Source: a virus
IMG/VR virus record: IMGVR_UViG_3300042898_004347
Span: 76,054 to 140,053 of that record
Reading direction: 5' to 3' (one strand)
Length of the DNA: 64,000 bases
A model generated the notes under the pieces. That model was not told where the DNA came from. It saw only the letters and a list, made by a program, of their open reading frames with translations, and searched no databases. Position numbers and translations under genes: made by a program. Shown piece after piece: positions 18,903-40,140 of this stretch (positions are counted from its first letter, which is position 1; each line of letters opens with the position of its first letter).

Positions 18903-19601
18903 TTAGGAAGTTTTGATTTCCGCAAATTCTGAGATCATTGGAAAGATTGGAGCAAGGGCAAGAGCCATATTCTGCGCCAATTCCATATGTTCCTTCTGCG
19001 TCCCATTGCCCGAACGAACCTCGATGTAATGGATAAAGCTACGCAACGTTCCAGAGACGTAAAGGCGCGAGACAGTATTACCCTCAGGTAGAATTGCGCG
19101 GGCTTGTTCCTTGGCAATACCGCGTTCCAATGCAGCTTTATAAGTTGTTGTTACTAAATCAATTACCTCTTGCTGTTTGTTTTCCCACCACAATTTTGTG
19201 GCGTCATCAGCAGTATTCAAGGAATTCTGACGATTCTTATCATCCTGAAGGCGAGCTTCACGCGTTACAAAGTCCAACTCTTTCACGGGATCCGCATAAC
19301 GCTGGCTGAATTCTTGGAAAGAGAACGAGCGGTGCCGAAGAAGCTGACGAGCAATATCCCGCGTCGTATTAACTTCTACGCAGGCAGACACCATCTCAAG
19401 TGGAGACCAATGCTTGTTGCGAATAAGGTAACGAATCAGTTTGTCCGAAGTCTCGGTATTGAACTGGTTCTTCGGATTCGAAACTCGTGCGCAAAATGCA
19501 ATGAGATCCTGAAGGTCCATACTGAAATCTTCGATTCCAAGTGGTTTTAGGCCATCCGCCATCTTAGAGTGACTAATGAGTTTTACTTTTTTACTTATCA
19601 T
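18903..19601 (-). CDS. thyX: Flavin-dependent thymidylate synthase
   Basis: HWSPLE, RHRSFSFQEFSQRY (ThyX motif), AKEQARAILP. Confidence 0.95.
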   Translation of the reverse strand: MISKKVKLISHSKMADGLKPLGIEDFSMDLQDLIAFCARVSNPKNQFNTETSDKLIRYLIRNKHWSPLEMVSACVEVNTTRDIARQLLRHRSFSFQEFSQRYADPVKELDFVTREARLQDDKNRQNSLNTADDATKLWWENKQQEVIDLVTTTYKAALERGIAKEQARAILPEGNTVSRLYVSGTLRSFIHYIEVRSGNGTQKEHMELAQNMALALAPIFPMISEFAEIKTS

Positions 19602-20031
19602 GATTGATTTTATGAGTGAGATAGTACCCAAGCATTTTTACGTTTTTCTGAGTAAAGTTAAACTGATCGCTGTAAATGCCACCATTACGTTGGATGAACT
19701 CTTCCGAGAAACCTTCCTTGCGCATACGGTTAATCATACCCCTATTGAGGATATATGCGCTAGAGCTCTTTTTCCCAAAATTAGGGAATACCATTATGGT
19801 ACCCAGATCGGAATTGATTCTGGCTTTTGCAGCAATAAATGTTTGATCAGAATTGATCGCCGTATCAAAATCAATGGATACCTTAATGTCTTTATTTTGA
19901 AGTTGCGCAGAATGAATAATGTCGTGAGCAAACTCCAGAACACACGCATTGACATGAACGTCAGTTTTATATTGAGAATAGTCTATTTCTGGTTTTTCTT
20001 TTTCGTTATCGTCGTCGTCGTCGGCAAGCAT
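19591..20031 (-). CDS. Hypothetical protein
   Basis: Fits the gene array. Confidence 0.6.
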   Translation of the reverse strand: MLADDDDDNEKEKPEIDYSQYKTDVHVNACVLEFAHDIIHSAQLQNKDIKVSIDFDTAINSDQTFIAAKARINSDLGTIMVFPNFGKKSSSAYILNRGMINRMRKEGFSEEFIQRNGGIYSDQFNFTQKNVKMLGYYLTHKINHDK

Positions 20032-25562: not shown

Positions 25563-26561
25563 TTATTGATTCCAGTGAGGATAAAATTCTCTGGATAAAT
25601 GAACAGATTGTGGTTTTTCCATGCAGGCAAAATCTAATTCGCCTTTGAGATTCATTAGCTTTGAAATCCATTCAAACACCTTGACATTGCCTTTGGCATT
25701 CTTATGAAGCTGTTCAACGAAGAGATTTCGAATATCATTGCGTTCATTCCAGGTACCATAGAATGGAGTTCCCTTGTAATAGCCAGTCTTTGGCAATTTG
25801 CGAGACTCGTTTTCAATTGGTAGAGGTTCCCAGATTGTCACTTTGCAGTTACACGTCTTTGCAAGATCCTCACATTGCTGAACATATCCAGCAACAAGAT
25901 CTCGAGTAGCTGCCTCAGGATTACTCTGACGAAGCAGATGATGGCGAATGTCAATGTTTCCGAAGTACACTTCAATCTCATCGTACTTCAGTTTATTTGG
26001 TAATACAAAAGATTTGAGACCCGAAGTGATAGCACCATAAAGAGTTTTATATGGGACGCAATTCAGTTTCCATCCTGGGCGATACATGGAAAGAGCATGA
26101 GAATCTCCGATTGCCAGTTTTGCGCTTTCTAATTCAAGATCCGTGTTGATTACCGTCGCAGATGTTTCAATCCGGGCCAGATTAATCCAGTCGACTAGTT
26201 TCCAATCTGGATGCGATGCTGGTTCTTTATCAACCCGGGGTTTAATCATCTCAGAGTATTTTGGGAAATCAATTGTGAGGGAAAGGACTTTACCAGTGAA
26301 CTTGGACAAACGGACAATCTGGTCAATTGCACCAAATTGCTTGACGCCTCCAAACATATTGACAGTACCGCCCCAATCATTCCCATGATAGACTGCAATC
26401 GTATCAAATGCATTGTAATCCTTAATCTTGCCACCATGGTTGACGGTAACATCGTATCCCATGCATTTAAGTTGATCAGCATAGATTGCAGCCTGCGCGG
26501 CACGATGCGATGAAATCCGCTCCGAGATTGGAGCCATCGGTGTAGTGATTAAGACTTTCAT
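25563..26561 (-). CDS. Putative DNA-modifying enzyme: T4 BGT-like N-terminal domain plus SGNH-like C-terminal domain
   Basis: N-half echoes BGT (MGYDVTV, FDTIAV, VNMFGG, KVLSLTID); C-half has GDSH, FGNID, SVH; occupies the bgt locus. Confidence 0.55.
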   Translation of the reverse strand: MKVLITTPMAPISERISSHRAAQAAIYADQLKCMGYDVTVNHGGKIKDYNAFDTIAVYHGNDWGGTVNMFGGVKQFGAIDQIVRLSKFTGKVLSLTIDFPKYSEMIKPRVDKEPASHPDWKLVDWINLARIETSATVINTDLELESAKLAIGDSHALSMYRPGWKLNCVPYKTLYGAITSGLKSFVLPNKLKYDEIEVYFGNIDIRHHLLRQSNPEAATRDLVAGYVQQCEDLAKTCNCKVTIWEPLPIENESRKLPKTGYYKGTPFYGTWNERNDIRNLFVEQLHKNAKGNVKVFEWISKLMNLKGELDFACMEKPQSVHLSREFYPHWNQ

Positions 26562-27505
26562 GATTTAAAATAAGCGCGATTCTCTTCCATATCCCCGAGA
26601 TCTTTCCATTTACGCTGGCTATTAATTTTTGAAATATCCACTTTAGATAGATTGCGGTTAATGTGTGCATCCGCACCCACATTTATAAAGATTGCTCCTG
26701 GTTTTCCTTTTTTTACAAACCCTTCCCATGCTTTTGCGTCATATGCCGCAGTTGTTGGGAACGGCATTTCATTTGCAATCGGATGAGCTTTAAGGAAAGG
26801 CATAGTTGCCGTTACAACTTCAGCATCGCCAATTTCACCATCATGGATATTTCGAGCAACTGCAACCCCGTAGGCTTTTGCATTTGGCCAGCCAATTTGA
26901 AGTGCCCGAACCATTGTGCCTGTTGATACAGCACACCAAATTTCAGAAGGTTCATGCCCAATTAAATTAGTAACCATATTAGCCATGTTTGCAAGTCCAG
27001 CAGTCACTGTTGCATTTCCAGTAAGACCAAATGGAAGATACTGAGCATTATTCTTTTCTGCCCATTTTTTCGCATAGGAATTCAATACTGGCATTGCAGC
27101 AATCTTAAAGAATCGCATGTCTGTATGTGCATAGGCAAAAAGAGCACCTTGATGATTCGATACTTCAGATGAAGCTGGACAAAAGAAAACACATTTCTTA
27201 TTATACATCTGAGCCAACATGGCGATGGCATCCGGAGCGTGACCCTGCCGCGGTGCACAGTAGACTAAAGTATCCTTAGGAGTTTCAGCAATAACTCGTT
27301 CTCCGCCGAATGCCTTTAATCCACCCGGAGCAAAATCTGCTCTAAGGATGTATTTGTCTCCGAACTGTTCAACAACTGGAGGATCGATTCGAGTATTGAA
27401 CGTCCCCCACAAGTTTTGATAATACTCTTTTGCCTGGCTACGCGACATCCCTTTCGGAATATCCTTGTTAGATGTGTCTTGAGTTACTGTGTACATGTTT
27501 TGCAT
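26558..27505 (-). CDS. PLP-dependent enzyme, fold type II (Trp synthase beta / ACC deaminase-like)
   Basis: LRAD...GGLK (PLP lysine), WCAVSTGT phosphate loop, YDAKAW. Confidence 0.75.
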   Translation of the reverse strand: MQNMYTVTQDTSNKDIPKGMSRSQAKEYYQNLWGTFNTRIDPPVVEQFGDKYILRADFAPGGLKAFGGERVIAETPKDTLVYCAPRQGHAPDAIAMLAQMYNKKCVFFCPASSEVSNHQGALFAYAHTDMRFFKIAAMPVLNSYAKKWAEKNNAQYLPFGLTGNATVTAGLANMANMVTNLIGHEPSEIWCAVSTGTMVRALQIGWPNAKAYGVAVARNIHDGEIGDAEVVTATMPFLKAHPIANEMPFPTTAAYDAKAWEGFVKKGKPGAIFINVGADAHINRNLSKVDISKINSQRKWKDLGDMEENRAYFKS

Positions 27506-28647
27506 AGTTCCTTATATTTTTCTGCCGTGACTCCAGCGCGGCTAATGACATAGTCGTCTGATGGGTGTACATCGAGATCGTTAAACGACTTAATGAGACC
27601 GAGCTCGAGCATCGGCTTCTGCCGGCCATAGGGATGGTCGTGAATACGATGTGATGACCAAAGATTATCTCTGTCCAGATGATTATATGCAGAGCCTGGA
27701 CGAACGTAGTTTTCAACCCAACGGATGAAATCACAGCACACGTCTTCTGCGTTATAAGGGAATGCTCCGGTATCAGATTGAATTTTCTCCATGACAAGAT
27801 CGAGGAAAGCCTCGGTCTTCATCTTTTTGTTTGGAACTGCAAGATATGAAATACATTCAACAGCATTTGAACCATAGTAAAATGGGGTATCCCGATGGAC
27901 ATACTGAGGAAACCAATCAGCAACGTCAGCAACAACTGCTGCATATTGGAAAGCAAACCTACGCATTCCATTTGCTTGATTCCAGCTCAACATGAATTCG
28001 CCAATTTCGCGAAGTGTCTTTTTGTTTCCAGCAACTAAAAAATCTGCAAGCTCAGTGGCCAAACGTGGAGCAAATTCGCAGAGGTAGTAATCGCCACCAC
28101 GTTTATAACCTGCGGGTGGTTTTGGAAATGCAGGAAACTGGTATCCAACTGAAGTGTAAAACGGAGACTTCTCGGCTTTCACGATTTCCGTCATCTCTGG
28201 AATTGAAGAAGCAGTATGAAGCTTGAACAATAACGTATTATGGTAACCGGATGGTTTGGTTGCATAATTGATGGCAGAACCTGTTACGCGGTGAAGAATG
28301 AATACGTACATCCATTCTGCAAGAGTGAACTTCTTTCCATTCCAACTCGTGGCCACAGTCTTACGTTGCGCAGTATGGTTTCCTGATGACATCTTCATCC
28401 AATAGGGGTGATCTGCATTCCAACCATAAAAGCAATCATTCACGATCTGCGAGAATCCAGCAAATTTACGTTCAACCACATCGTAGAGCTCAACATTTTC
28501 AAGCAAAGCATCACCCATTTTAGACTCGGCATGAGTAAGCATCCCATAAGGAGGTCTAGATGAAACGTTGCATTTCTCCTGTTGATCCTTTGCTAATTGA
28601 TAGTAGCGAAGGAATTCATCGTAATAGTGTGTAGTTGAAAGACTCAT
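27484..28647 (-). CDS. aGPT-Pplase / amino-acid:DNA transferase-like protein (HhH glycosylase fold)
   Basis: C-terminal AEDVCCDFIRW (ExxxC[DE]xx[KR]) and GMRRFAFQ...AD; next to the PLP enzyme and hydroxymethylase. Confidence 0.55.
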   Translation of the reverse strand: MSLSTTHYYDEFLRYYQLAKDQQEKCNVSSRPPYGMLTHAESKMGDALLENVELYDVVERKFAGFSQIVNDCFYGWNADHPYWMKMSSGNHTAQRKTVATSWNGKKFTLAEWMYVFILHRVTGSAINYATKPSGYHNTLLFKLHTASSIPEMTEIVKAEKSPFYTSVGYQFPAFPKPPAGYKRGGDYYLCEFAPRLATELADFLVAGNKKTLREIGEFMLSWNQANGMRRFAFQYAAVVADVADWFPQYVHRDTPFYYGSNAVECISYLAVPNKKMKTEAFLDLVMEKIQSDTGAFPYNAEDVCCDFIRWVENYVRPGSAYNHLDRDNLWSSHRIHDHPYGRQKPMLELGLIKSFNDLDVHPSDDYVISRAGVTAEKYKELCKTCTQ

Positions 28648-28650
28648 AAA

Positions 28651-29097
28651 TTATTCGAATTTGACAAATTCCCAGGTAATACCTGCTTCAGTGAACATCT
28701 GCTGAGTCAGATTCCACGACTCTTGCCACGTTGCAGGTATTTCCTGCCATGGCATAACGATGTTTTTAATTCCAACTTGGATGATGCCTTTTGCACATTC
28801 AGAGCAAACTGGCAATCCATGCACAAACAAAATGGATCCATCAAGCGAGACGCCACTATAACTTGCGTTGTAGATGGCATTCATTTCTGCATGAACCACA
28901 TATTTGTACTTCGTCGGACGATCAGCATACCGATCCGGAGTATCTTGGATTCCACGTGGGAAACCATTATAGCCCTGAGCTAGTACCTGACCCTTCGACC
29001 CAATGATGACACATCCGATTTTTGTGGATGGATCTTTCGACCATCCAGCAATCTCTCGTGCTAACTTAAGGTAGCGACCTTTCCACTTATTATCCAT
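28651..29097 (-). CDS. cd: dCMP deaminase
   Basis: SKDPSTKIG, GYNGFPRG, HAEMNAI, PVCSEC. Confidence 0.92.
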   Translation of the reverse strand: MDNKWKGRYLKLAREIAGWSKDPSTKIGCVIIGSKGQVLAQGYNGFPRGIQDTPDRYADRPTKYKYVVHAEMNAIYNASYSGVSLDGSILFVHGLPVCSECAKGIIQVGIKNIVMPWQEIPATWQESWNLTQQMFTEAGITWEFVKFE

Positions 29098-29767
29098 TAA
29101 TAAGTGTGAAGTGCCGTTCATAGACGTGGAGCGAGCCGACGTGCCAGATGAGGTCTCCCATTTCATAATTATTTTCTCCGAGCGTGTTTAGATCTTGCAG
29201 AAGGCGGGTTTGTACTATGTATTGCCAGGCACGATCATTCTTATAACCGAAGACAACATCATTGCTTCGCATTTGGACGATGGCATGAAGTTTATTGTCT
29301 CGAATAAGATATTGCACAGCATTCGTGCACATGAAATCGGAACAGCCATCTTCGCAATAATGCTGGTGCATCTCTGGCCGAGTATAGATCATTATGGCTC
29401 TGCGACTATTTGGATTTGCAATAAGCTCATTTCGCGCAGAATTATATTGCTTATAATTGGTTTCTGAGTAGATGCACCAGCCATAGTTTGAATTAATCCA
29501 GCCATCTTTCGTTGCAACTTGTTTCCAGATCTTAGGAGCACCGCCAGGAATATCATTGACATTCAACGACTGGGAATCATACCATTGAAGTTCAGCATTG
29601 ATGTACTCATAATTTGGTTTGCCAAAGATGGCTTCTTCATCTGCAAAGAATGATGCGCCACATAACTCGAGTGTTTTAACACCACTCTTGTCTGTCACAT
29701 AGGCACCATTCGTTAGAGCATCTTTAAAATGCTGACGAATATCATTAACTCTGGGTAGATTTAGCAT
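29090..29767 (-). CDS. 42: dCMP hydroxymethylase (T4 gp42-like)
   Basis: INSNYGW, DFMCTNAVQYLIR, MRSNDVVFGYKND with Asp at the thymidylate synthase Asn177 position, GSLHVYERHF. Confidence 0.88.
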   Translation of the reverse strand: MLNLPRVNDIRQHFKDALTNGAYVTDKSGVKTLELCGASFFADEEAIFGKPNYEYINAELQWYDSQSLNVNDIPGGAPKIWKQVATKDGWINSNYGWCIYSETNYKQYNSARNELIANPNSRRAIMIYTRPEMHQHYCEDGCSDFMCTNAVQYLIRDNKLHAIVQMRSNDVVFGYKNDRAWQYIVQTRLLQDLNTLGENNYEMGDLIWHVGSLHVYERHFTLING

Positions 29768-30095
29768 TGAGATGGCGGTTAAGAAAGTCACGATCAGTGC
29801 GCTGGCCGTCAATACCTTTACGGCAGAATGACACAAAGAAGGATGAATAGTTAATGAGATCCTTTGCAGAGTCTTCAAGGGAATCGAAATTAGGTGCATA
29901 GTTTGCATCATTCTCCATTGCCTCAAGGACAGAACGAAGACGCAGCACCTTTGTGTTCATGATGTCAAGGATTGACGCAGCACCGCGTGGATAATAATCA
30001 GCTTGACGAATCGTACTATTTGGATTCTGATAATCGTTGGACTTTTTGAGTTGCAGATCTGCACACTCTTGGAGGACTTTGATGGATTCTTTCAT
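29745..30095 (-). CDS. Nucleotide-modification-associated (Nmad1/DUF1599-like) alpha-helical protein
   Basis: KKSNDY...K..RL...DSLEDSAKDLINY. Confidence 0.65.
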   Translation of the reverse strand: MKESIKVLQECADLQLKKSNDYQNPNSTIRQADYYPRGAASILDIMNTKVLRLRSVLEAMENDANYAPNFDSLEDSAKDLINYSSFFVSFCRKGIDGQRTDRDFLNRHLNAKSTQS

Positions 30096-30108: not shown

Positions 30109-30579
30109 TCATACACTAGTTATAGCAGTTTGTACAGTAAATTGTGGACGAGAGCCAATAAAAGATGAACCATTCCAGTTCCATATTCCATAGAATTCAT
30201 ACTCATCAGAATCCATGGGATTCAAGAAAATGTAAATTCGTCGTGCCACCGGAATACCTCGGGCAATTTTATCTGCCATTCCCTGCAATACGTTCCTGCA
30301 ATTTGCAGCGCAGGTTGTAACCTTCACGTCAATCGATGTGATGCCATCAGGCTCATACAGATCTTTGTATTTTCGATCATCGTCCACGTAACCTTGCGCC
30401 ATAAGCCATAGCTCAGCGTAGTGGCCACGTAGGCACTGCTTTAGAATTTCATCAAACGTACGATCCTGATGCACTGCAGGACTCGGATCCTCATGGATCC
30501 GTTTTGCCTCTTTTGAGGCGCGGGAATATAACGACTGTTGGTCGATATCGGATTTCTTAAATGTGATAGCGTTCTGCAT
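30109..30579 (-). CDS. Hypothetical protein, possible PD-(D/E)xK nuclease
   Basis: GHYAE...YKDL...IDVK. Confidence 0.5.
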   Translation of the reverse strand: MQNAITFKKSDIDQQSLYSRASKEAKRIHEDPSPAVHQDRTFDEILKQCLRGHYAELWLMAQGYVDDDRKYKDLYEPDGITSIDVKVTTCAANCRNVLQGMADKIARGIPVARRIYIFLNPMDSDEYEFYGIWNWNGSSFIGSRPQFTVQTAITSV

Positions 30580-30643: not shown

Positions 30644-31594
30644 CTAGAGCATGACACTCTTGTAGGCAAACTCAATGGCACGTTCAGCTTCCACATTCAA
30701 TGGTCGTTTTTGATAAAGCCTAGAGGTATCGCTATCGAGACCGCGGATCATTTCTGCAATCTGCGATGCGGTAATAGGATATTTGCGCTTCACTGCATTG
30801 CACGCAATACTCGACATGATTTTGTAGATCATGCGGTATCTTCCAGAGCCATCAATCGATGAGATTGTCTTGTACTCATTGATCAGCTTTTTATTCACAA
30901 AAGGACAATCGGTATAGGATGACCAGCTTACAGAGTTATTGTTCAGTTGTTCTTTCCGATGATTCAGAATTTCTTTCTGAATGTTGGATGGAAGCTTATC
31001 AATGAAACTCTGAGATGGCTTTTCGCTGAATGGATGCATTGCCATAATCTGGTCTGGATCCATGATCTCACCGGACCGAACCACGATAAAATTATCAGCA
31101 TCTGGATATTGCGCAGGAACGTAATACATCCGGCTCAGATCTTTCGTCTGCTCATCCGCCATAGAATTAAAATGCTTATTCAGGGCATACCAAAAATGAC
31201 GAATTTTATCAGGAGGTACTTCCTTGTTCAATTGAAATACGATTCGAAACTTCTTTTTGTCTGGACGAGATGACGCAGTCGAATAACAAATATGCTTGTA
31301 CTGAGAATACACCTTTACTGCATCTGCAAATGAGCACTCATATTCGTCCACATCCAATGCAGCCCAACCACCCCAGGACGTTACATTGGCGTTGGATCGA
31401 GTTCCACCTTTGGCATAGACTGCTGGAGAAATGAGAGAAGATGATTTCTTCGTCTCACCCCTTTTAGCCTTATAGCCTGGCAATCTTGAAAGCATGAAAA
31501 GCAACTTTTCAAAGTCCGCCCAAGATTGACAGACTACTAGCTTATCCGTCTTATTGTCAAAGATGGAATCAAATACTGTGAGTGAATAGTTCAA
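30644..31594 (-). CDS. AEP/Prim-Pol-like primase family protein
   Basis: ALDVD (DxD), YSTAS, KFRIVF, D.SRMYYVP. Confidence 0.6.
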   Translation of the reverse strand: MNYSLTVFDSIFDNKTDKLVVCQSWADFEKLLFMLSRLPGYKAKRGETKKSSSLISPAVYAKGGTRSNANVTSWGGWAALDVDEYECSFADAVKVYSQYKHICYSTASSRPDKKKFRIVFQLNKEVPPDKIRHFWYALNKHFNSMADEQTKDLSRMYYVPAQYPDADNFIVVRSGEIMDPDQIMAMHPFSEKPSQSFIDKLPSNIQKEILNHRKEQLNNNSVSWSSYTDCPFVNKKLINEYKTISSIDGSGRYRMIYKIMSSIACNAVKRKYPITASQIAEMIRGLDSDTSRLYQKRPLNVEAERAIEFAYKSVML

Positions 31595-31995
31595 TCGGTG
31601 AAAATAGGTCCAAGCAATCCTACGTTATCTGCGTGAGATGGTGCAGTCCAACCTTGAGGCTTAATTAGATCTGGAAGACCCAATGGATTTGGCCGAGACT
31701 CTTTTACTCCTACTTGTTTAGCGATGTTCGCTTCATATACCGCAGCCCAGGCTTTTTCAGAATCAACATCAAAAGCGTTGAGTGTGCCGATGGCAACAAC
31801 GCAAAGATCGATGAGTGCATCAACCACATCATCAGCATTGTCTGCTTTCTTCATTTCATCGAGTTCTTCTTGCAAGAACTTAATGCGAAACTCCAGGAAA
31901 GCCTTAAGCTTTTCCTTGTCGAATTCACGTACGATTGGATTTACTCCAAATTTGCGATGCATATATTCAATGTCATGTACCCAATTAGTTTTCAT
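31591..31995 (-). CDS. MazG/PRA-PH-like dNTP pyrophosphohydrolase
   Basis: LQEELDE...VDALIDL...V.EAN..K...DLIKP.GW..P. Confidence 0.8.
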   Translation of the reverse strand: MKTNWVHDIEYMHRKFGVNPIVREFDKEKLKAFLEFRIKFLQEELDEMKKADNADDVVDALIDLCVVAIGTLNAFDVDSEKAWAAVYEANIAKQVGVKESRPNPLGLPDLIKPQGWTAPSHADNVGLLGPIFTD

Positions 31996-38967: not shown

Positions 38968-40140
38968 TTAGAATGCGGTTTCTGCAGGTTCAGCAGGTGC
39001 AGCCACAGCAGGTTCAGCTGGAACTTCCTTTGGAATGATTGTAGGATCAATCTTGGAGTAAAGATCCGAGAACGCAATCTTGGTGTCCTGATCAAAGCGA
39101 GCAATACACATGTCGATGGACTTCAGACGATCGCCGAAGATTGCAAAGGTGTGAGCGATATGGCAAAGACGACGAGTGGAAATGAGCTCATCCACGCCAC
39201 CATCAGCAAACGTTTTGCGGATGACTTCAGCCCACGTGACGAGATACTCAGCAAATTGCTCATCAACTTTCTTGAACTTTTCCATGTGCTTGAGCACAAT
39301 CTTGCGTTCAGTAGCCAATGGAGGATATGACTGTTCGATCGTGCAGACGAAACGCTCGAGGAAAGCCTCGTCGATTACCGTTGCAGAAACAAACCTGCCA
39401 TCCTCAGAACCTTTGCCTTTGGTATTCGCAGTAGCAATCACATTGAAACCAGTAGCAGGACGGATGACTTCACCCGTCTTTTTGATCATGATTGGTTTGC
39501 CTTCCAGCACACCTTGAAGACACATGATTTTGTTGGTGGAACGGTCAATTTCGTCCACGAGAAGAATGGCACCACGCTCCATGGCTTTCACCACGGGACC
39601 TTTGGCAAACACCGTCTCGCCATTTACAAGGCGGAAGCCGCCGATCAAATCATCTTCATCCGTTTCTGGTGAAATCTGGACGCGGATGTACTCGCGCTCT
39701 GACTGAGCGCAGGCTTGTTCGACCATCATCGTCTTGCCATTACCCGACAATCCGGAAATAAAAATTGGATAGAAAGCACGAGACTTAATAACCATTGCAA
39801 TATCAGCATATTCGCCCCAGCGAATGTAGGTATCATCTGCATGTGGAACGTACGTGTCCGTGTTCAGGATGGACGTTACGGGAGCAGAAAGTTTGAACGA
39901 GGTCAGAGCAGATTCATCTGCAACGTGAACCGGATCTTCCGGGCGCGTGACGCCCATCGGGAGAGAGTAGTCGTAAAGACCCTTTCGAATCTTGAAGCTA
40001 TCTTTGAGAAGGTCCGAATACTCCTTGGGGGCAAACCCAAGTTGAGTACCGATTTCGTCAATCGTCTTCCGGCGAAATTGAACTTTGTCTGGAAATTGAA
40101 CCTTGAGAGATTCAATGATGGTTACTGATGCTGTTTTCAT
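38968..40140 (-). CDS. MoxR/CobS-like AAA+ ATPase
   Basis: GLSGNGKT, LLVDEID, TANTKGKG, AFLERF, ISTRRL. Confidence 0.9.
   Translation of the reverse strand: MKTASVTIIESLKVQFPDKVQFRRKTIDEIGTQLGFAPKEYSDLLKDSFKIRKGLYDYSLPMGVTRPEDPVHVADESALTSFKLSAPVTSILNTDTYVPHADDTYIRWGEYADIAMVIKSRAFYPIFISGLSGNGKTMMVEQACAQSEREYIRVQISPETDEDDLIGGFRLVNGETVFAKGPVVKAMERGAILLVDEIDRSTNKIMCLQGVLEGKPIMIKKTGEVIRPATGFNVIATANTKGKGSEDGRFVSATVIDEAFLERFVCTIEQSYPPLATERKIVLKHMEKFKKVDEQFAEYLVTWAEVIRKTFADGGVDELISTRRLCHIAHTFAIFGDRLKSIDMCIARFDQDTKIAFSDLYSKIDPTIIPKEVPAEPAVAAPAEPAETAF

What the first reader, a model, noticed from the sequence alone, without database searches (positions are those of the whole stretch)
25563..30095. Candidate undescribed DNA hypermodification system: amino-acid/acyl-type decoration of hmC at the bgt locus
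Seen: one tightly coupled run of Nmad1-like, gp42 dCMP hydroxymethylase, dCMP deaminase, aGPT-Pplase-like, fold-II PLP enzyme, BGT-N/SGNH chimera, then uvsX. The three unusual genes sit where T4 has beta-glucosyltransferase, and no intact glycosyltransferase is in the window. Known: aGPT-Pplase amino-acid:DNA transferases with PLP enzymes build thymidine hypermodifications on hmU (ViI, M6, phiW-14 types) after activation by a P-loop 5-hmU DNA kinase; T-even hmC is normally glycosylated. Inference: the thymidine-type toolkit has been grafted onto cytosine, giving an amino-acid-derived hmC adduct for evading restriction and CRISPR. I know of no characterised example but cannot check the literature here.
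Basis: partly seen in the sequence, partly recalled or inferred. Interest (0 to 1): 0.92.

Follow-up and report, generated by a model that had tools for sequence, protein, structure and literature searches.

The report
Kinase-less hydroxymethylcytosine DNA decoration cassette
An uncultured T4-like water phage makes hydroxymethylcytosine as T4 does, but where T4 has its sugar-adding enzyme it has three conserved enzymes related to those that hang amino acids on thymine in other phages, so its DNA probably carries a cytosine decoration that has not been described.

Summary
On the minus strand, overlapping or abutting, lie a small Nmad1/MazG-like gene, a T4-type dCMP hydroxymethylase, dCMP deaminase, gene A, gene B, gene C and then uvsX.

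- **Hydroxymethylase:** about 60% identical to T4 gp42. It has Asp at both diagnostic positions.
- **Gene A:** an all-helical glycosylase-like fold. Its best solved match is the 5-PmdU glycinyltransferase PUGT, and it keeps an invariant ExxxC catalytic motif.
- **Gene B:** a fold-II PLP enzyme.
- **Gene C:** an N-terminal domain like that of T4 beta-glucosyltransferase (BGT) joined to an SGNH esterase domain.

A and C are fused into one protein in some relatives. A+B+C travel together in 70 of 80 related viral contigs. Every neighbouring thymidylate-synthase homologue, in several lineages, is the cytosine (Asp) type and never the uracil type. I found no P-loop DNA kinase.

My best reading is a post-replicative, kinase-less hypermodification of 5-hmC, at about 0.68. 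The chemistry of the product is unknown.

Caveats: generic glycosyltransferases exist elsewhere in 5 of 7 related genomes, and gene C also occurs without A and B in other hmC clusters.

Cultured Aeromonas phages 44RR, 31 and 25 carry a fused variant, so the idea can be tested. This scan has already flagged the same cassette on at least 27 other genomes. I found no characterised example in the literature.

The parts
29745..30095 (-). Small Nmad1/MazG-like protein directly upstream of gp42. It is 116 aa from the ATG at 30095; the open frame reaches a GTG at 30116.
   Evidence: Pfam DUF1599 E=0.014, 16.2 bits, below the cut-off. phrog_18404 'hydrolase' 9.9e-12. Conserved upstream of gp42 in most related loci. 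No PDB relative by sequence.
29090..29767 (-). dCMP hydroxymethylase (T4 gp42 homologue), cytosine type.
   Evidence: PDB 1b5e E=4e-83. Motif MRSNDVVFGYKNDRAW has Asp at the equivalents of E. coli ThyA D169 and N177 (T4 D179). Catalytic Cys in FMCTN. Start ATG at 29767.
28651..29097 (-). dCMP deaminase (cd).
   Evidence: PF00383 1.6e-18 and phrog_174 1e-41. The likely start at 29097 overlaps the gp42 stop.
27484..28647 (-). Gene A: an AADT / aGPT-Pplase-superfamily, glycosylase-fold protein. Putative DNA base transferase acting on hmC.
   Evidence: AF2 pLDDT 93.8, all-alpha. VIA top hit is PUGT 8z2m, Z 9.6. BFVD hits are AADT-domain, Pplase1 and 5-hmdU kinase helical proteins. Invariant E301...C305. 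No Pfam HMM hit.
26558..27505 (-). Gene B: fold-type-II PLP enzyme, ACC-deaminase / D-cysteine-desulfhydrase-like.
   Evidence: PF00291 at 19.9 bits. phrog_7093 3e-73. Many homologues carry PF00291. Invariant K64 in GGLK and an invariant STGT loop. Atlas PALP clusters 0.98.
25563..26561 (-). Gene C: two-domain protein with a BGT-N-like Rossmann domain (about residues 1-138) and an SGNH esterase/acyltransferase domain (about 139-331).
   Evidence: AF2 pLDDT 91.5. SGNH hits Z 14.6. Foldseek T4 BGT 1qkj E 8e-4. PF09198 sub-threshold on gene C homologues in 6 of 7 genomes. Invariant GDSH (S154), GNID and S319/H321. Fused to gene A in P0152 and L092.
31591..31995 (-). MazG-like NTP pyrophosphohydrolase. 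Candidate dCTPase supporting replacement of C by hmC.
   Evidence: phrog_671 9e-18 and phrog_12019. Weak PDB match to DR2231. Conserved near gp42 in related loci.
18903..19631 (-). ThyX, a flavin-dependent thymidylate synthase. It is a separate source of dTMP.
   Evidence: PF02511 Thy1 5.3e-41. phrog_85.

Best explanation
This is a conserved cassette for post-replicative hypermodification of 5-hydroxymethylcytosine in the DNA of an uncultured T4-like aquatic phage.

Shown by homology: gp42 makes hm-dCMP. MazG-like pyrophosphatases and dCMP deaminase adjust the nucleotide pools. ThyX supplies dTMP.

Inferred:
1. After replication, gene A, a distant member of the amino-acid:DNA transferase (AADT / aGPT-Pplase) superfamily that keeps the Glu...Cys catalytic pair, flips out hmC. 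Its Cys adds to C6, which creates an exocyclic methylene at C5. A nucleophile, probably an amino acid or an amine, is then installed.
2. Gene C stands where thymidine systems have the P-loop 5-hmU DNA kinase. It combines the DNA/hmC-binding half of a T4-type beta-glucosyltransferase with an SGNH acyl-transfer domain, and it is fused to gene A in some relatives. It most likely esterifies the hydroxymethyl group, giving acyl activation in place of phosphorylation. Alternatively it acylates or de-acylates the adduct.
3. Gene B, a fold-II PLP enzyme, tailors the attached amino acid or makes the donor.

The general reading (an hmC-directed DNA modification cassette) has a probability of about 0.68. 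The specific order of steps has a probability of about 0.3.
For: - gp42 is 60% identical to T4 dCMP hydroxymethylase and has Asp at both specificity positions.
- Gene A fold: PUGT is the top hit of 48,161 chains (Z 9.6), followed by HhH-GPD glycosylases. BFVD matches are AADT-domain, Pplase1 and 5-hmdU-kinase helical proteins. Atlas neighbours carry PF18723 or PF18724.
- One ExxxC motif is invariant in 48 of 48 family members. It is also present in PaMx11 gp46 at E243...C247, the residues shown to be essential or in the active site (PMC8989533; PMC11472151).
- A and C are naturally fused.
- A+B+C occur together in 70 of 80 close loci and in 8 of 11 distant loci.
- All co-located TS homologues are Asp type. 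The 44RR td serves as an Asn-type control.
- Near-complete genomes without an adjacent gp42 have it elsewhere.
- No Walker-A DNA kinase was found: the P-loop proteins are PhoH, gp41, gp44, CobS-like, gp46 and gp17.
- The SGNH Ser and His residues are invariant.
Against: - There are no chemical data.
- The Pfam models for AADT and HMUDK_hel do not hit gene A. hhalign to PUGT fails.
- Z 9.6 for a helical protein is within the range of common arrangements, and it is tied within about 1 with glycosylases.
- The record is 84% complete, so a kinase or a gp1 dNMP kinase could be missing.
- GT1-family glycosyltransferases lie elsewhere in 5 of 7 related genomes, and a GT25/GT2 protein lies in this one. 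Glycosylation of hmC is therefore not excluded.
- Gene C relatives occur without A and B, so the three genes are not an obligate unit.
Confidence: 0.68

Rival explanations
1. The cassette decorates hydroxymethyluracil, not hmC. hm-dCMP made by gp42 would be deaminated by the adjacent dCMP deaminase to hm-dUMP and incorporated in place of some T. The AADT-like enzyme would then work on its usual base.
For: cd sits directly between gp42 and gene A here and in most related loci. All characterised AADTs act on 5-hmdU derivatives (PMC8989533).
Against: No Asn-type TS homologue is linked to the cassette in any lineage. ThyX keeps dTMP synthesis going. No 5-hmU DNA kinase was found. D302 replaces the Thr that contacts thymine O4 through a metal in PUGT (PMC11472151). 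T4 also has cd without making hmU (own knowledge).
Confidence: 0.1
2. hmC is glycosylated as in the T-even phages by a glycosyltransferase encoded elsewhere. The trio does something else to DNA or to the sugar, for example O-acetylation of a sugar by the SGNH protein or base excision by the glycosylase-fold protein.
For: GT1 genes are present in 5 of 7 related genomes, including all three that are at least 90% complete. SGNH enzymes often O-acetylate sugars (PatB and OatA). The gene A fold is also that of HhH-GPD glycosylases.
Against: The GT genes lie tens of kb from gp42 and the trio. The one in this genome has no homologue in 5 related genomes. The trio occupies the beta-gt slot next to gp42. 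The ExxxC pair belongs to AADT, not to glycosylases.
Confidence: 0.12
3. The three genes are not a DNA-modification system. They would be small-molecule metabolism or host-takeover enzymes that happen to sit in the replication module.
For: Each protein alone has only weak or no family assignment. PLP and SGNH enzymes mostly act on small molecules.
Against: There is a Rosetta-stone fusion of A and C. The linkage to cytosine-type TS genes is strict across lineages. Both A and the N-terminal domain of C resemble base-flipping DNA enzymes. Gene B relatives lie inside or beside DNA-methylase/ParB proteins in other phages.
Confidence: 0.08

Closest known systems
Thymidine hypermodification pathways of phages M6, ViI, PaMx11, PhiW-14 and SP10 (dUMP hydroxymethylase, P-loop 5-hmU DNA kinase, AADT/aGPT-Pplase2, tailoring enzymes; PMC8989533, PMC11472151)
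   Same: A TS-family hydroxymethylase supplies a 5-hydroxymethylpyrimidine. A glycosylase-fold enzyme carries a Glu...Cys pair. A PLP enzyme sits in the same cluster. The genes are tightly linked beside nucleotide-metabolism genes.
   Different: The base is cytosine (Asp-type synthase). No P-loop DNA kinase is present. A BGT-N/SGNH protein stands in its place and is sometimes fused to the helical domain. The PLP enzyme is fold type II (ACC-deaminase-like); the fold type of the characterised PLP decarboxylases was not compared. Gene A is too distant for the Pfam ADDT or HMUDK_hel models.
T4 hmC glucosylation (gp42 plus alpha- and beta-glucosyltransferase)
   Same: The same gp42, the same genome position between uvsX and gene 42, and a weak but consistent similarity of the N-terminal domain of gene C to the acceptor (DNA) domain of BGT.
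   Different: The UDP-glucose-binding half of BGT is replaced by an SGNH domain with an intact Ser/His pair. No sugar-nucleotide machinery lies in the cluster.
TET/C5-methyltransferase metavirome clusters with P-loop kinase and aG/PT-PPlase genes (Burke et al. 2021, PMC8256090)
   Same: That paper proposed that thymidine-type enzymes might act on 5hmC.
   Different: There the hmC is made after replication by TET, a kinase is present, and the activity was only hypothesised. Here hmC comes from gp42 before replication and no kinase is found.
5-carbamoyloxymethylcytosine from metavirome association (PMC8670742; the paper was seen only in a search list and the product name is from my own knowledge)
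   Same: A non-sugar O-substituent on hmC in environmental phage DNA.
   Different: As I recall, a different enzyme class (a carbamoyltransferase). I did not read or test this.

Membership tests
dCMP hydroxymethylase (T4 gp42 type) | Thymidylate-synthase fold with the catalytic Cys | tested here: met
   PF00303 6.9e-17. PDB 1b5e E=4e-83, with Cys in FMCTN aligned to T4 Cys148.
dCMP hydroxymethylase (T4 gp42 type) | Asp in place of ThyA Asn177 (T4 Asp179), which gives cytosine specificity. Asp kept at ThyA 169, so it is not the D169N 5-hydroxy-dCMP synthase type. | tested here: met
   Motif MRSND...KND. The D169N rule is from PMC13326640. The motif is the same in 53 of 53 related loci.
Amino acid:DNA transferase (AADT, aGPT-Pplase clade 2, Pfam PF18724) | Match to the family profile | tested here: not met
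   No hit to PF18724 or PF18723 even at E<=10. One of 48 relatives hits PF18723 at E=0.01.
Amino acid:DNA transferase (AADT, aGPT-Pplase clade 2, Pfam PF18724) | Two-helical-bundle glycosylase-like fold | tested here: met
   VIA top hit is PUGT 8z2m, Z 9.6, rmsd 4.1 over 207 residues. BFVD AADT-domain proteins match with probability 1.0.
Amino acid:DNA transferase (AADT, aGPT-Pplase clade 2, Pfam PF18724) | Essential Cys with a nearby Glu | tested here: met
   E301 and C305 are invariant in 48 of 48 sequences. There is a single ExxxC motif, as in PaMx11 gp46 at E243...C247 (PMC8989533, PMC11472151). The structural equivalence of the two motifs is inferred, not superposed.
Amino acid:DNA transferase (AADT, aGPT-Pplase clade 2, Pfam PF18724) | Works on 5-phosphomethyl-dU made by a companion P-loop 5-hmU DNA kinase and a dUMP hydroxymethylase | tested here: not met
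   No kinase candidate among the Walker-A proteins of the 84%-complete record. The linked synthase is the dCMP type.
SGNH/GDSL hydrolase-acyltransferase | SGNH fold with the block I Ser, oxyanion Gly/Asn and the block V His | tested here: met
   Z 14.6 to 2hsj over residues 139-331. Invariant GDSH (S154), GNID (201-204) and H321. The Asp of the usual DxxH is absent.
T4 beta-glucosyltransferase (GT-B) | Both Rossmann halves, including the UDP-glucose-binding C-terminal domain | tested here: not met
   Only profile positions 27-117 of PF09198 match, below the cut-off. The C-terminal half is SGNH.
Fold-type-II PLP enzymes (Pfam PALP) | Profile match, Schiff-base Lys and Gly-rich phosphate loop | tested here: inconclusive
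   PF00291 scores 19.9 bits against a cut-off of 35, though many homologues carry PF00291. K64 and the STGT loop are invariant. The PDB profile search found nothing.
Nmad1 (DUF1599) | Profile match | tested here: inconclusive
   E=0.014, 16.2 bits against a cut-off of 25.

The most novel reading that the evidence does not exclude
Ester activation replaces phosphorylation. The BGT-N/SGNH protein O-acylates 5-hmC in DNA. The AADT-like enzyme then displaces the ester through a Cys-C6 / exocyclic-methylene intermediate with an amino acid, and a fold-II PLP enzyme remodels that amino acid. The result would be a previously unknown hypermodified cytosine that replaces C throughout the genomes of a widespread group of aquatic T4-like phages. 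Sister cassettes (swapped PLP paralogues, an extra gene, inositol-phosphate-synthase clusters) would make further undescribed bases.
Probability: 0.3. Interest if true: 0.9.

Novelty: new variant of a known kind. Interest (0 to 1): 0.78.

Why it matters
- Known phage cytosine hypermodifications are almost all sugars on hmC or 5-hydroxyC. Amino-acid-type decoration is characterised only on thymine.
- This cassette would extend AADT chemistry to cytosine and show a kinase-free way to activate a hydroxymethylpyrimidine in DNA.
- It is abundant: more than 900 gene A clusters at 90% identity and more than 580 IMG/VR loci.
- A new base would affect restriction and CRISPR evasion, sequencing bias in viromes, and tools for reading or derivatising 5hmC.
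- Petrov et al. 2010 left open what Aeromonas phages 44RR, 31 and 25 do with their hmC (gp42 present, no glucosyltransferase). Their 795-aa fusion of a gene C-like and an HMUDK_hel-like domain offers a candidate answer in a culturable system.

Tried and rejected
- **Gene A as a GT-B glycosyltransferase.** One fused relative (P0225) gave a weak MGDG_synth hit. I rejected this because the model is all-helical at pLDDT 93.8.
- **Sequence-level bridges from gene A to known families.** Pfam and NCBIfam gave nothing. A PDB profile search gave nothing. hhalign against PaMx11 gp46, the 44RR ORF233c and an HMUDK_hel protein gave only E of about 0.1-0.4.
- **Gene B.** A PDB search with the single sequence and with the profile found nothing useful.
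- **Phage collection.** No DNA or protein match for gene A in 50,697 deposited phages.
- **Promoter and terminator scan of the run.** Counts were at the chance level and not informative.
- **P-loop DNA kinase or gp1-like kinase.** A motif search found only PhoH, helicase, clamp loader, CobS-like, gp46 and terminase. This is a crude test on an 84%-complete record.
- **"No glycosyltransferase anywhere".** Rejected, because a GT25/GT2 protein lies in this genome and GT1 genes lie in relatives.
- **Iyer et al. 2013.** The paper could not be read.


Full report
**What is there.** The window is the last 64 kb of a 140-kb IMG/VR record of a T4-like phage that is 84% complete. Its DNA polymerase is only 50% identical to the nearest deposited phage and 48% identical to cyanomyoviruses.

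On the minus strand the order is:
- gp41 helicase
- a 130-aa gene
- uvsX
- gene C (25563-26561)
- gene B (26558-27505)
- gene A (27484-28647)
- dCMP deaminase
- a thymidylate-synthase homologue
- a small Nmad1/MazG-like gene
- a variable 156-aa gene
- a primase-like gene
- a MazG-like pyrophosphatase
- DNA polymerase

Neighbouring genes overlap by 4-23 nt or are 3 nt apart.

**The base.** The synthase is about 60% identical to T4 dCMP hydroxymethylase (PDB 1b5e, E=4e-83). Its motif MRSNDVVFGYKNDRAW has Asp where ThyA has Asn177 (T4 Asp179, the cytosine-specificity residue). It also keeps Asp at ThyA position 169, where the newly described 5-hydroxy-dCMP synthases have Asn (PMC13326640). ThyX (18903-19631) supplies dTMP separately. 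The phage is therefore equipped to make hm-dCMP, not hm-dUMP and not 5-hydroxy-dCMP.

**Gene A.** No Pfam, NCBIfam or PHROG family matches it. With 48 homologues, AlphaFold gives an all-helical model at pLDDT 93.8.
- Aligned against 48,161 solved chains, the top match is PaMx11 gp46 (PUGT, the 5-PmdU glycinyltransferase) at Z 9.6. HhH-GPD glycosylases and Qng1 follow at Z 7-8.6.
- Among predicted viral structures, the matches after its own family are AADT-domain proteins, Pplase1 proteins and the helical domains of the SP10 and PhiW-14 5-hmdU DNA kinases.
- Language-model neighbours carry PF18723 or PF18724.
- Lee et al. showed that a conserved Cys and a nearby Glu are essential in AADTs, and that the Cys adds to C6 to give an exocyclic methylene (PMC8989533). 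In PUGT these are E243 and C247, with T244 helping to hold the metal that contacts thymine O4 (PMC11472151).
- Gene A has exactly one ExxxC motif, E301-D-V-C-C305. E and C are invariant in 48 of 48 relatives, and D302 is present in 45 of 48. Single ExxxC motifs also occur in PaMx11 gp46, in a fused relative, in the 44RR ORF233c and in an HMUDK_hel protein.

I read gene A as a distant, catalytically intact member of this superfamily. It is not a member of the Pfam families as they are currently defined.

**Gene C.** The model (pLDDT 91.5) has a C-terminal SGNH domain (Z 14.6 to 2hsj; PAF acetylhydrolase, sialate O-acetylesterase, PatB and OatA also match). GDSH (Ser154), GNID and His321 are invariant.

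The N-terminal Rossmann domain gives a Foldseek match to T4 beta-glucosyltransferase (E 8e-4). It also gives sub-threshold PF09198 hits that recur on gene C homologues in 6 of 7 genomes and in none of the 14 control genomes. The acceptor half of a BGT-like enzyme is joined to an acyl-transfer or esterase domain, and no sugar-nucleotide-binding half is present.

**Gene B.** This is a weak PALP match for this protein (19.9 bits). However, phrog_7093 scores 3e-73, many homologues carry PF00291, and one source names a homologue as ACC deaminase / D-cysteine desulfhydrase-like. K64 in a GGLK motif and an STGT loop are invariant.

Related domains lie inside a "DNA modification methylase" of Erythrobacter phage R6L and next to ParB genes in Microcystis phage Mae-JY30. 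This hints that the family works on DNA.

**Linkage.**
- A 790-aa protein (P0152) is gene C (35% identity, E 9e-57) fused to gene A (39% identity). L092 holds the same fusion as one open frame.
- Of 80 IMG/VR loci with gene A at 65% identity or more, 70 hold A, B and C. Most of the others are cut by contig ends.
- Eleven more distant loci have the order C-A(-B).
- All 53 TS homologues in the close loci, and all 13 in the distant ones, have Asp at both positions.
- Two of the three larger genomes (74-99% complete) that lack an adjacent gp42 have it within 15 kb of gene A; in the third (89% complete) the two lie at opposite ends of the linear record.
- As a positive control, the td gene of phage 44RR shows the Asn form.

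**Variants.** Phages whose gene A is 65-97% identical carry three cassette forms:
- B with C, as in this window
- a 38%-identical PLP paralogue with C
- B with a 30%-identical C paralogue plus an extra gene of about 330 aa with no family match

Such shuffling is typical of arms-race loci.

**Gene C without A and B.** Sixty-nine loci have a gene C relative alone. Its neighbours there are:
- a myo-inositol-1-phosphate synthase
- a 519-aa protein with a real HMUDK_hel match (3.6e-9)
- a BGT-like protein
- an FkbM methyltransferase
- in some loci, an Asp-type TS gene with a dUTPase

Four of the five larger records of this class (35-77% complete) that I searched also have an Asp-type TS gene. Gene C is thus a shared part of several cytosine-linked clusters, which fits a general first step on hmC.

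**Cultured relatives.** Aeromonas phages 44RR, 31, 25 and others carry a 795-aa protein. Its first 330 residues are gene C-like (30-35% identity). Its C-terminus gives a weak HMUDK_hel hit (E 0.0036) and has the ExxxC motif. Foldseek also paired gene A with the phage 31 copy (rank 13).

44RR has an Asp-type gp42. Petrov et al. noted that these phages have genes 42 and 56 but no glucosyltransferase, and that their modification is unknown (PMC2993671).

**Caveats.**
- No P-loop DNA kinase or gp1-like kinase was seen, but the test was a motif scan on an incomplete record.
- The genome has a 513-aa GT25/GT2-like protein among the tail genes. It has no homologue in five related genomes.
- However, GT1-family genes lie elsewhere in 5 of 7 related genomes. 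Glycosylation of hmC cannot be excluded, and the "no glycosyltransferase" argument is weak.
- The product, the donor and the order of steps are inferred only.
- From my own knowledge, C5-methyltransferases can exchange the hydroxyl of 5hmC for thiols. Gene A might therefore not need prior activation of the base.

**Literature and earlier notes.** Eight full-text searches found no characterised case. The nearest is a hypothesis that a kinase plus aG/PT-PPlase might act on TET-made 5hmC (PMC8256090).

After my tests I looked at the scan's own notes. The same cassette has been flagged on at least 27 other genomes, and several follow-ups reached the same reading.

- the A-C fusion
- the ExxxC comparison
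- the Aeromonas link
- the gene-C-only inositol-type clusters
- the glycosyltransferase caveat

**Verdict.** This is a new variant of a known kind.

Noticed in passing
L163:8263-14306 and L096:9926-14368 (IMG/VR contigs): A different cytosine-linked cluster in other T4-like contigs. It holds an Asp-type TS gene, a dUTPase, a gene C-like BGT-N/SGNH protein, a myo-inositol-1-phosphate synthase (PF01658, 5e-22), a 519-aa HMUDK_hel protein without a Walker A motif, a BGT-like protein (PF09198, 3.6e-7) and an FkbM methyltransferase. It may be an inositol- or sugar-phosphate-type hmC decoration.
   Followed up: partly
L001:8001-10388 (Aeromonas phage 44RR2.8t ORF233c) and neighbours: A 795-aa fusion of a gene C-like half and an HMUDK_hel-like half. 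It lies next to a phage-encoded sodium:solute symporter (PF00474, 6e-53) in cultured phages that have gp42 but no glucosyltransferase.
   Followed up: partly
L008:11163-12053 compared with window 26558-27505: A phage whose gene A is 96% identical carries a PLP gene only 38% identical, so a paralogue has been swapped in. Other relatives (L013:6555-7541, L025:11149-12165, L065:11131-12135) have an extra gene of about 330 aa with no family match between A and a divergent C.
   Followed up: partly
L003 (Erythrobacter phage vB_EliS_R6L gp1) and L004:5995-6705 (Microcystis phage Mae-JY30): Gene B-like PLP domains lie inside or beside proteins annotated as DNA modification methylase, next to ParB/sulfiredoxin genes.
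   Followed up: no
G000:C1:9379-10920 (outside the window, among tail genes): A 513-aa protein with GT25 (27.4 bits) and GT2-like domains. It has no homologue in five related genomes that carry the cassette.
   Followed up: partly
window 29745-30095 and 31591-31995: Two small proteins hit the two halves of the same PHROG (phrog_18404, 'hydrolase'). One is clearly MazG-like. Together they may be the phage's dCTPase function.
   Followed up: partly
window 30109-30579: A 156-aa gene with no family match sits between the Nmad1-like gene and the primase-like gene. It is present only in the closest relatives (100%, 52% and 36% identity) and absent from the rest.
   Followed up: no
window 38968-40140 and G000:C1:73661-74377: CobS-like (phrog_249) and PhoH-like genes, typical of aquatic T4-like phages. 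The host is unknown.
   Followed up: no
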